Assembly: GCA_000146465.1 (NCBI GenBank)
Contig: CP001944.1
Strand: one strand, 5' to 3'
DNA length: 64,000 bases
The notes under the pieces were generated by a model. That model was not told where the DNA came from. It searched no databases and worked only from the letters and a program-made list of their open reading frames with translations. Within the stretch, counting starts at the first letter, position 1. Each line of letters begins with the position of its first letter. Made by a program: the position numbers and the translations under genes. Shown here in pieces: positions 21,360 to 22,570 of this stretch.

Positions 21360-21911
21360 ATGAAGGTTCTACTATTTGCCATTGGAGTTCTGTGCAGGAG
21401 AATAAAGCTAGAGCCCAAGGAGCAGTTTGTATTCAGAGATAAGGTCACGGCAAACCAGATGTACAAGTTTATGTATCAGGCTCCACGATCTGGAAAAATC
21501 GAGATGACGGTGTTTGATACAAAAGGAAGACAGATGATCAAGACTCGAGACCCGTACTCGGTGCTGTACTCCAAAATGAATGAGGATGGAGAGATTGTGA
21601 TATCTGTTAAGAACAACAGTTCAAAAGGCATTAACTTTGGCTACAGATGCCCAGACACCAGCAAGAAAGCTCAAGGAGACCTTGGGCCAATAAGCGTTGA
21701 TTTGGTTTCGGAGCTCCAAGAAGTCCTAGAGACAATCATTCAGGCCCAGAGAGTTCACATCAAGAAACATGAAGAACATGCAAGGATGGTTGCAGGATCA
21801 AGGAAGTGGGTTACAAGGCTCTTGATCTTTGAAACCCTCTTCTTCACAGGTGTACTGTACTTCTTGCACAAGGATATGCTGAAGATGTTTGAAACCAAAA
21901 GAGAAGTTTAA
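21360..21911 (+). CDS. p24/emp24 (TMED) cargo receptor
   Basis: Signal peptide, GOLD-like domain, coiled coil, single TM helix and short cytosolic tail 'FETKREV'. 'ctccccctcATG' start motif. Confidence 0.7.
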
Positions 21912-22570
21912 TTAAAGGACTCAACTCTTCTAAAAAGCCTTATGATTTCATTTGCTGTCTCTTCTAATGTCATGGCGTCGTTCTCAATGACCACAGAGCC
22001 ACTAGAAGCAACAAGGGGGCCGTGTTCTCTTGTCCTATCATCATTGTCTCTTTTCGATATGGCATCGAGCAGCTTTTCATAGGATTCCGATCCATTTTCC
22101 TTATATCTTCTCCTTGCCCTCGTCTCCGGGCTTGCCGTAAGAAATACCTTCAGATCTGCGTCAGGCATTATCTCGGTAGCTATGTCTCTTCCATCAACAA
22201 TTATTCCCTTCTTTTCAAGATCTATTGTGGATCTTTGGATTTCCGACACCTTTTCTCGGACATACTTTTCCTTTGCAACGGAACCAACATTATTATCAAT
22301 CTTTTCCCCACGGAGATGCCCAGATACATCTTTTCCATCAATAAATACTCTATTGTCTCTTACCTCTATGTTCAATCCAAGAACAAACTTTTTCTGATTC
22401 TCGTCCTTGGGGCACACCTTCTCAAACTGCCTTGCCAGGGCATATGTCACGGCTCTGTACAGATTCCCAGATATCAGATGAGAAAAACCCAGTTTCTTTG
22501 CAACAAGATCAGATGTGCTGCTTTTTCCACTTGCTGCAGGCCCGTCAACGGCAATCTTATACACTTTCAT
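21908..22570 (-). CDS. cmk: Cytidylate kinase, bacterial Cmk type
   Basis: '[37 protein letters not shown]' matches Cmk 'IAIDGPAGSGKSTVAK.LA..LG..YLDTGAMYRA'; C-terminal '[11 protein letters not shown]'. The start was moved to ATG 22570 ('tatccccaATG'), which avoids overlap with the upstream gene. Confidence 0.75.

What the first reader, a model, noticed from the sequence alone, without database searches (positions are those of the whole stretch)
21908..22570. Bacterial-type cytidylate kinase (Cmk) in a eukaryotic gene array; candidate horizontal acquisition
The protein has the Cmk-family N-terminus '[13 protein letters not shown]...[10 protein letters not shown]' and the overall Cmk length. 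It does not look like the adenylate-kinase-type UMP/CMP kinase that eukaryotes normally use. It is embedded between bona fide eukaryotic genes (p24 and a WD-like gene) and carries the host-type CCC start motif ('tatccccaATG'), so it is not contamination. Nucleotide-salvage enzymes are a recurrent class of horizontally acquired genes in obligate intracellular eukaryotes.
Basis: partly seen in the sequence, partly recalled or inferred. Interest (0 to 1): 0.65.

Follow-up and report, generated by a model that had tools for sequence, protein, structure and literature searches.

The report
Bacterial-type cytidylate kinase in a microsporidian
This is the already annotated cytidylate kinase gene of the parasite Encephalitozoon intestinalis, a bacterial-type nucleotide-recycling enzyme that microsporidia probably took from a bacterium long ago, and both the gene and that idea are already in the literature.

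Summary
Window 21908..22570 (minus strand) encodes a 220-aa protein that matches the bacterial Cmk family end to end (PF02224 E=8.7e-59; TIGR00017 above its cut-off). It gives no ADK-type match beyond the P-loop. The window is Encephalitozoon intestinalis, and the protein is 100% identical to the GenBank entry 'cytidylate kinase'.

It is not contamination. Gene order is identical in E. cuniculi and Ordospora. Codon usage, GC3 and the CCC start motif match the neighbouring genes. dN/dS is about 0.09.

The ATP- and CMP-binding residues of E. coli Cmk are conserved, apart from Ser101. About 60 microsporidian homologues form one clade (83% NJ bootstrap). Every nearest relative I could identify is bacterial, at no more than 44% identity, and no donor lineage is resolved.

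None of this is new:
- The E. cuniculi orthologue has a solved structure (PDB 7L4A).
- Heinz et al. 2012 list this family, including the E. intestinalis copy, as gained in the microsporidian ancestor.
- The same paper calls it a weakly supported candidate transfer from bacteria.

Verdict: a real, functional, anciently acquired bacterial-type (d)CMP kinase that is already known. Interest is low.

The parts
21908..22570 (-). cmk coding sequence (220 aa plus stop): bacterial-type (d)CMP kinase of Encephalitozoon intestinalis
   Evidence: ORF. PF02224 E=8.7e-59. TIGR00017 182.9 bits against a cut-off of 135.55. 100% identical to NCBI 'cytidylate kinase [Encephalitozoon intestinalis ATCC 50506]'. 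78% identical to the E. cuniculi enzyme with solved structure 7L4A.
22523..22546 (-). P-loop / Walker A, G10-P-A-A-S-G-K-S17 (ATP phosphate binding)
   Evidence: Read directly from the sequence. D9, G10, S14, G15, K16 and S17 are invariant across 25 homologues. K16 aligns with E. coli Cmk K18.
22280..22399 (-). Roughly residues 58-97: the extra segment in the NMP-binding domain that distinguishes bacterial Cmk from ADK-type NMP kinases
   Evidence: Aligns with the corresponding stretch of E. coli Cmk with only a 4-residue deletion. It is covered by the full-length PF02224 match. That this segment is the family's hallmark comes from my own knowledge of the E. coli structure papers.
22028..22195 (-). 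Residues 126-181, carrying D126-G-R-D129, LID arginines R151/R154/R155, and R174, D178 and R181 (CMP base, sugar and phosphate contacts)
   Evidence: These align with E. coli D129-G-R-D132, R154/R157/R158, R181, D185 and R188. All are invariant in the microsporidian alignment.
22571..22607 (-). 37-nt intergenic spacer and 5' region carrying the CCC motif (tatccccaATG)
   Evidence: Sequence. CCC lies within 20 nt upstream of the ATG in 27 of 42 long ORFs of the window, against a 13% background, p=3e-14.
21908..21911 (.). 4-nt overlap of the convergent cmk and p24 reading frames (their stop codons interlock)
   Evidence: ORF coordinates. The same overlap is found in E. cuniculi (L001 5660-5663) and Ordospora (L003 5654-5657).

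Best explanation
The gene encodes an active P-loop nucleoside-monophosphate kinase of the bacterial Cmk family. It transfers the gamma-phosphate of ATP to CMP or dCMP to give CDP or dCDP. Nucleoside-diphosphate kinase then converts these to CTP or dCTP.

Microsporidia cannot make pyrimidines de novo. In such a cell the enzyme recycles the CMP released by RNA turnover and by CDP-alcohol phosphotransferase reactions in phospholipid synthesis.

The gene was most likely acquired once from a bacterium, before the known microsporidian lineages diverged. It has since been fully domesticated: it has a host-type start context, host codon usage, a fixed chromosomal position, and is under purifying selection.

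Shown here: family membership, conserved catalytic residues, host-like composition, synteny, and a single microsporidian clade whose nearest relatives are bacterial.

Inferred, not shown: enzymatic activity and substrate range in this species, the bacterial origin itself, and the physiological role.
For: Family:
- PF02224 matches full length at E=8.7e-59.
- TIGR00017 scores above its cut-off.
- All PDB hits are cytidylate kinases. The best is 7L4A, whose aligned residues are identical to the E. cuniculi orthologue P0004.

Catalytic residues, against E. coli Cmk (sequence verified against 1KDO, alignment):
- K18 corresponds to K16, S36 to S34, R41 to R39 and R110 to R105.
- D129-G-R-D132 corresponds to D126-G-R-D129.
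- R154/157/158 correspond to R151/154/155.
- R181/D185/R188 correspond to R174/D178/R181.
- These positions are invariant in 23-25 microsporidian-type sequences.

Selection: dN/dS against E. cuniculi is about 0.09.

Resident gene:
- The order RPL3, WD40, PP-loop, GPI2, p24, cmk, 426-aa gene, ThiF is identical in E. cuniculi (two assemblies) and Ordospora.
- The cmk/p24 convergent pair is also kept in a distant metagenomic microsporidian. There Cmk is 41% identical and p24 is 32% identical, E=4e-36.
- GC, GC3 and codon usage lie within 1 SD of 41 other ORFs.
- The CCC motif is shared with 27 of 42 genes.

Origin:
- A profile search gives about 60 microsporidian-type proteins at 260 bits or more, then a gap to 231 bits or less.
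- The two closest non-microsporidian hits whose contigs I read, P0170 and P0028, lie in clearly bacterial contexts.
- A scan of bacterial and archaeal genomes finds at best 43% identity, in Acholeplasmataceae.
- An NJ tree of 130 taxa recovers the microsporidian sequences as one clade in 250 of 300 bootstraps.

Literature:
- Heinz et al. 2012 list the family as gained in the microsporidian ancestor, with BLAST hits only to bacteria and Microsporidia.
- They find one copy each in T. hominis, N. ceranae, E. bieneusi, E. cuniculi and E. intestinalis.
Against: - No donor lineage is resolved. The sister of the microsporidian clade changes between bootstraps (Victivallales, Gemmatimonadaceae, a low-GC Firmicute-like sequence and others).
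- The tree is a distance tree, is unrooted, and has bacterial sampling biased toward the best hits.
- I could not survey other eukaryotes directly, so absence of type-1 Cmk from fungi and rozellids rests on the 2012 BLAST table and on the lack of such hits among the top 120 of two searches.
- Heinz et al. themselves call the evidence 'weak'.
- The residue equivalent to E. coli Ser101 (a sugar contact) is Gly96 here and Val in E. cuniculi.
- No activity data for any microsporidian Cmk turned up in the literature searches.
Confidence: 0.8

Rival explanations
1. Bacterial contamination or misassembly: the gene belongs to a bacterium sequenced along with the parasite.
For: The family is overwhelmingly bacterial. 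Where they could be identified, all non-microsporidian hits are bacterial.
Against: The gene lies 37 nt from one eukaryotic gene and overlaps another by 4 nt. The identical arrangement is found in two E. cuniculi assemblies and in Ordospora colligata. Codon usage, GC3 and the CCC start motif match the host genome. The best bacterial identity is only 43-44%.
Confidence: 0.01
2. Vertical inheritance: a type-1 Cmk was present in the eukaryotic or fungal ancestor, perhaps from the mitochondrial endosymbiont. It was retained in Microsporidia and lost, or missed by sampling, elsewhere, so no microsporidian-specific transfer took place.
For: No donor is resolved and the sister group is unstable. The gene is old enough to be in every sampled microsporidian lineage. 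Other eukaryotes were not surveyed here.
Against: The Heinz et al. 2012 BLAST table lists only bacterial phyla and Microsporidia and marks the family 'NOT in KOG'. Their Dollo analysis places the gain at the microsporidian ancestor. None of the named close hits is alphaproteobacterial or eukaryotic outside Microsporidia. The only hit tagged with the EukProt source is E. hellem.
Confidence: 0.15
3. The protein has kept the Cmk fold but changed its job, for example to a UMP-preferring or broad pyrimidine NMP kinase, or to a non-catalytic role.
For: In T. hominis it is the only enzyme annotated as 2.7.4.14. No 2.7.4.22 (UMP kinase) is listed and only one adenylate kinase is present, so UMP phosphorylation has no obvious other enzyme. 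The Ser101-equivalent position is not conserved.
Against: The positions that read the cytosine base in E. coli Cmk (S36, R110, D132, R188; roles from my own knowledge of the mutagenesis literature) are invariant here as S34, R105, D129 and R181. The P-loop and LID arginines are intact, which argues against a pseudo-enzyme. dN/dS of about 0.09 indicates ordinary purifying selection.
Confidence: 0.1

Closest known systems
Encephalitozoon cuniculi cytidylate kinase (GenBank 'CYTIDYLATE KINASE', UniProt 'Probable cytidylate kinase'; crystal structure PDB 7L4A)
   Same: Direct orthologue. It is 78% identical, has the same length (220 aa), sits in the same chromosomal neighbourhood, and has the same 4-nt overlap with p24.
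   Different: Only species-level sequence differences. No structure or biochemistry exists for the E. intestinalis protein itself.
Bacterial (d)CMP kinase, Cmk (PF02224 / TIGR00017; e.g. E. coli 1KDO/1CKE, S. pneumoniae 1Q3T)
   Same: Same family and domain layout, P-loop, NMP-domain insert and LID arginines. The CMP-binding residues are conserved.
   Different: Only 32-44% identical. The gene is in a eukaryotic nucleus with eukaryotic start context and is not linked to the usual bacterial neighbours (e.g. der, as). The Ser101 equivalent is Gly. The microsporidian sequences form their own clade.
Eukaryotic UMP/CMP kinase of the adenylate-kinase family (yeast URA6, human CMPK1; PF00406)
   Same: It catalyses the same kind of reaction (pyrimidine NMP plus ATP) and would fill the same metabolic step.
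   Different: Not the same family. There is no PF00406 match, and ADK models hit only the P-loop at E~1e-3. That eukaryotes normally use the ADK-type enzyme is established knowledge, not tested here.
Other bacterial-origin nucleotide genes of Microsporidia (NTT nucleotide transporters, thymidine kinase)
   Same: Same theme: an intracellular parasite without de novo nucleotide synthesis holds nucleotide-handling genes of apparent bacterial origin (Dean et al. 2016, PMC5113988).
   Different: For NTT and TK the transfer is well supported and widely cited. For Cmk the published support is described as weak, and no donor emerges here.

Membership tests
Bacterial-type cytidylate kinase, Cmk type 1 (PF02224 / TIGR00017) | Full-length match to the family profile above the curated threshold | tested here: met
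   PF02224 199.2 bits against 26, profile positions 1-210 of 211. TIGR00017 182.9 bits against 135.55.
Bacterial-type cytidylate kinase, Cmk type 1 (PF02224 / TIGR00017) | P-loop GxxxxGK[ST] near the N-terminus | tested here: met
   G10-PAAS-G15-K16-S17, invariant in the homologues.
Bacterial-type cytidylate kinase, Cmk type 1 (PF02224 / TIGR00017) | CMP-binding residues of E. coli Cmk (S36, R41, S101, R110, R131, D132, R181, D185, R188) | tested here: met
   Eight of nine are conserved: S34, R39, R105, R128, D129, R174, D178, R181. S101 is replaced by G96. The functional roles of these residues are from my own knowledge of the E. coli structures.
Bacterial-type cytidylate kinase, Cmk type 1 (PF02224 / TIGR00017) | Extra roughly 40-residue segment inside the NMP-binding domain, absent from ADK-type kinases | tested here: met
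   Residues ~58-97 align with the E. coli segment with one 4-residue gap. The profile match is uninterrupted.
Bacterial-type cytidylate kinase, Cmk type 1 (PF02224 / TIGR00017) | ATP:(d)CMP phosphotransferase activity | not testable with these tools
   No biochemical data for a microsporidian Cmk were found.
ADK-type eukaryotic UMP/CMP kinase (PF00406) | Match to the adenylate-kinase family profile over the whole domain | tested here: not met
   PF00406 is absent at E<=0.01. NCBIfam adk models reach E=6e-4 to 4e-3, over residues 8-42 only, far below their cut-offs.
Archaeal-type CMP kinase (TIGR02173 / PF13189) | Score above the family threshold and better than the type-1 model | tested here: not met
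   TIGR02173 35.6 bits against a cut-off of 102.1. PF13189 28.7 bits, far below the 199.2 of PF02224.
Gene of horizontal (bacterial) origin in a eukaryote | Physically integrated and stably inherited in the recipient genome | tested here: met
   Conserved synteny in Encephalitozoon and Ordospora, and partly in a distant microsporidian. Composition is host-like.
Gene of horizontal (bacterial) origin in a eukaryote | Recipient clade nested within, or sister to, a specific donor group in a well-supported phylogeny | tested here: inconclusive
   The microsporidian clade is recovered in 250 of 300 bootstraps, but its sister is unstable. The tree is unrooted NJ with biased bacterial sampling.
Gene of horizontal (bacterial) origin in a eukaryote | Absence from the recipient's eukaryotic relatives | not tested
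   No eukaryote-wide collection could be queried. This rests on Heinz et al. 2012 (BLAST hits to bacteria and Microsporidia only, 'NOT in KOG') and on the absence of other eukaryotes among the named or EukProt-tagged top hits.

The most novel reading that the evidence does not exclude
The bacterial Cmk did not merely add to the ancestral eukaryotic URA6-type UMP/CMP kinase in the microsporidian ancestor; it replaced it, and is now the parasite's only pyrimidine NMP kinase. Its cytosine-reading residues are unchanged, which would leave UMP without an efficient kinase. Microsporidia would then have to obtain uridine nucleotides as UDP or UTP from the host. That constrains the unresolved question of how they acquire pyrimidines, and it would make Cmk, which has no human counterpart, an essential and selective drug target.
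Probability: 0.3. Interest if true: 0.45.

Novelty: already known. Interest (0 to 1): 0.15.

Why it matters
The finding is a sound textbook-style example of a bacterial enzyme embedded in a highly reduced eukaryotic genome, and the host has no enzyme of this family. However, the gene has been annotated since the first microsporidian genomes. The structure of its orthologue is in the PDB. Its probable bacterial origin, and its presence in E. intestinalis specifically, were tabulated in 2012. What remains open is narrow: the identity of the donor, and whether this is the only pyrimidine monophosphate kinase in microsporidia.

Tried and rejected
1. Contamination: rejected on synteny and composition.

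2. A longer N-terminus (TTG 22654 or ATG 22645): rejected. It overlaps the neighbouring gene, and no orthologue has it.

3. Donor identification by NJ bootstrap and by a scan of 185,579 bacterial and archaeal species genomes: no stable sister. The best identities, 40-44%, are spread over Acholeplasmataceae, Anaeroplasmataceae, Selenomonadaceae, Calditrichaceae, Gemmatimonadales and a Bacteroidota-like contig. The genome scan is also biased by the peptide patterns it used, which accounts for the many Streptomyces hits.

4. Naming the unnamed microsporidian-like hits through cluster look-ups: no names were returned. Contig context was used instead.

5. My first bootstrap run gave 0 of 300, and the second gave 124 of 300. 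I had left E. romaleae (P0121), P0225 and the AT-rich P0171 outside the microsporidian set. Corrected.

6. Literature searches for biochemical work on a microsporidian Cmk, or for an ADK-type UMP/CMP kinase in microsporidia, found nothing beyond Heinz 2012. Two papers on Paramicrosporidium and on HGT in early-diverging fungi do not mention the enzyme.

7. I did not run the exhaustive representative search, a structure prediction or the third homologue search. An orthologue structure is already solved, and the unnamed hits those searches return could not have settled the eukaryote-distribution question.

Full report
**What is there**

On the minus strand an ORF runs from the ATG at 22570 to a stop at 21908-21910 and encodes 220 residues beginning [18 protein letters not shown]. 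The quoted peptide and the upstream 'tatccccaATG' are both present.

The protein matches Pfam PF02224 (Cytidylate_kin) over essentially the whole profile, at E=8.7e-59. It also passes the curated threshold of the NCBIfam equivalog TIGR00017 'cmk', with 182.9 bits against 135.55. Adenylate-kinase models touch only the P-loop at E~1e-3, and PF00406 is not reported. In detail: this is a bacterial-type Cmk, not the ADK-type UMP/CMP kinase.

**Whose gene it is**

The protein is 100% identical to the NCBI entry 'cytidylate kinase [Encephalitozoon intestinalis ATCC 50506]'. Annotated orthologues, with their identity to the window protein, are:
- E. romaleae, 80% (that identity is for its cluster representative P0002; the name comes from cluster member P0121);
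- E. cuniculi, 78%;
- E. hellem, 75%;
- Ordospora colligata and O. pajunii, 62-63%;
- Pancytospora epiphaga, 48%.

A profile built from 23 of these sequences also retrieves Vittaforma corneae, Pancytospora philotis, Enteropsectra breve and dozens of unnamed sequences. The best PDB match is 7L4A, 'Cytidylate kinase' (E=4.5e-107), whose aligned residues are identical to the E. cuniculi protein.

**It is a resident gene, not contamination**

The surrounding ORFs are ordinary eukaryotic genes:
- near the gene: RPL3, a WD40 protein, a PP-loop ATPase, GPI2, p24/EMP24, ThiF+rhodanese and proteasome Rpt1;
- further out: NMT, HDAC, FEN1/XPG, PI4K and a homeodomain protein.

The order RPL3, WD40, PP-loop, GPI2, p24, cmk, 426-aa gene, ThiF is identical in two E. 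cuniculi assemblies and in Ordospora colligata. That includes the 4-nt overlap of the convergent cmk and p24 frames. A much more distant metagenomic microsporidian, with Cmk 41% identical, still has cmk convergent with a p24 orthologue (32% identity, E=4e-36).

Composition is host-like:
- GC is 0.425, against 0.414±0.031 for the other 41 ORFs.
- GC3 is 0.405, against 0.450±0.048.
- The fit of synonymous codon choice to the pooled usage of the other 41 ORFs has z=+0.99.
- A CCC within 20 nt of the ATG occurs in 27 of 42 ORFs against a 13% background (p=3e-14), and cmk shares it.

The one inaccurate detail in the finding concerns the upstream neighbour (22608..23882). It is not demonstrably WD-like. 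Its only hit is a WD40-type model at E=0.02, far below threshold.

**Is it functional?**

I verified the E. coli Cmk sequence against PDB 1KDO and aligned it with the window protein. The P-loop lysine is conserved (K18 to K16). So are:
- S36 to S34, R41 to R39 and R110 to R105;
- D129-G-R-D132 to D126-G-R-D129;
- the LID arginines R154/157/158 to R151/154/155;
- R181/D185/R188 to R174/D178/R181.

These positions are invariant in the microsporidian alignment. Only Ser101 is replaced, by Gly96. The extra segment in the NMP-binding domain that typifies bacterial Cmk is present.

Against E. cuniculi, dN=0.136 and dS≈1.5, giving dN/dS≈0.09. dS is near saturation, so the ratio is approximate. The most likely function is therefore the canonical one: ATP + (d)CMP gives ADP + (d)CDP.

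Microsporidia lack de novo pyrimidine synthesis and are said to retain 'dedicated monophosphate kinases' for nucleotide recycling (Dean et al. 2016, PMC5113988). Recycling of CMP from RNA turnover and phospholipid synthesis is the inferred role. In the EC table for T. hominis this is the only enzyme listed under 2.7.4.14. No bacterial-type UMP kinase is listed and only one adenylate kinase. I could not check the equivalent complement in E. intestinalis.

**Origin**

In the profile search, about 60 microsporidian-type proteins score 260 bits or more, followed by a gap to 231 bits or less. I checked contig context for the hits on either side of the gap.
- P0021 and P0164 lie among tubulin, Kelch, HECT, KRR1 and p24 genes, so they are eukaryotic.
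- P0170 lies in a tmk, holB ... cmk, der arrangement, and P0028 lies next to ScpA/ScpB and SprA, so both are bacterial.

A scan of one genome per bacterial or archaeal species gave at best 43% identity (Acholeplasmataceae). It was followed by Anaeroplasmataceae, Selenomonadaceae, Calditrichaceae and Gemmatimonadales.

I built a neighbour-joining tree with Kimura distances on 130 sequences and 210 columns. It recovers all microsporidian sequences as one clade in 250 of 300 bootstraps. That clade includes P0171, from an AT-rich 1.4-kb contig that looks microsporidian. The Encephalitozoon/Ordospora-like group is recovered in 295 of 300. The bacterial sister of the whole clade is unstable.

The data therefore support a single old origin in Microsporidia, with only bacterial relatives visible. 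They do not name a donor and do not formally exclude ancient vertical descent with loss elsewhere.

**What is already known**

Heinz et al. [quoted passage not shown]'. Their Table S8 lists the family (T. hominis orf_1000) among the 320 families gained in the microsporidian common ancestor. It records one copy each in T. hominis, N. ceranae, E. bieneusi, E. cuniculi and E. intestinalis. It also records BLAST hits to bacterial phyla and Microsporidia only, and 'NOT in KOG'.

**Verdict**

Novelty: already known. Interest: low.

The most novel reading still open is that this Cmk displaced the eukaryotic URA6-type enzyme and is the only pyrimidine NMP kinase. That would bear on the open question of how microsporidia obtain uridine nucleotides. 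I could not test this, because no microsporidian proteome could be searched for ADK-family members.

Noticed in passing
window 21908-21911; L001 5660-5663; L003 5654-5657: The convergent cmk and p24 reading frames overlap by 4 nt, with interlocking stop codons. The overlap is conserved in E. cuniculi and Ordospora, which implies overlapping 3' transcript ends.
   Followed up: partly
window 19251-20201 (+) and 23926-25056 (+): A PP-loop ATPase (Ncs6/CTU1-like) and a ThiF+rhodanese protein (Uba4/MOCS3-like), both expected in the URM1 tRNA 2-thiolation route, lie 3.7 kb apart on either side of cmk. The same arrangement occurs in E. cuniculi and Ordospora.
   Followed up: no
window 20195-20201: The GPI2 gene (20195..21040, minus) and the PP-loop gene (19251..20201, plus) overlap by 7 nt at their 3' ends. 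This is another sign of extreme compaction.
   Followed up: no
window 22608-23882 (-): A 424-aa protein conserved in E. cuniculi and Ordospora has no confident domain.
   Followed up: partly
window 1045-1734 (-) and 1837-2526 (-): Two adjacent 229-aa FAR-17a/AIG1-like genes, an apparent tandem duplication in a genome otherwise stripped of redundancy.
   Followed up: no
window 25798-26733 (-) and 26917-27777 (-): Two neighbouring ORFs of about 300 aa have no Pfam hit, hydrophobic-looking sequences, and the lowest GC in the window (0.35, about 2 SD below the mean).
   Followed up: no
window-wide, 20 nt upstream of start codons: A CCC triplet occurs within 20 nt upstream of the ATG in 27 of 42 long ORFs, against 13% of random 20-mers (p=3e-14). 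This agrees with the start-proximal C-rich signal described for Encephalitozoon.
   Followed up: yes
L009 (GCA_041192925.1, contig JBFTWQ010059637.1, 1466 bp, 26.6% GC): A Cmk on a tiny AT-rich contig of a highly fragmented assembly groups with the microsporidian clade and carries microsporidian-type motifs (SGLLYRA, REHSPL). It is probably microsporidian DNA inside another organism's assembly.
   Followed up: partly
L004 1158-2276 (Pancytospora epiphaga contig): In Pancytospora the cmk neighbourhood differs from Encephalitozoon. It includes a CDP-alcohol phosphotransferase, an enzyme class that releases CMP. The proximity may be coincidental.
   Followed up: no
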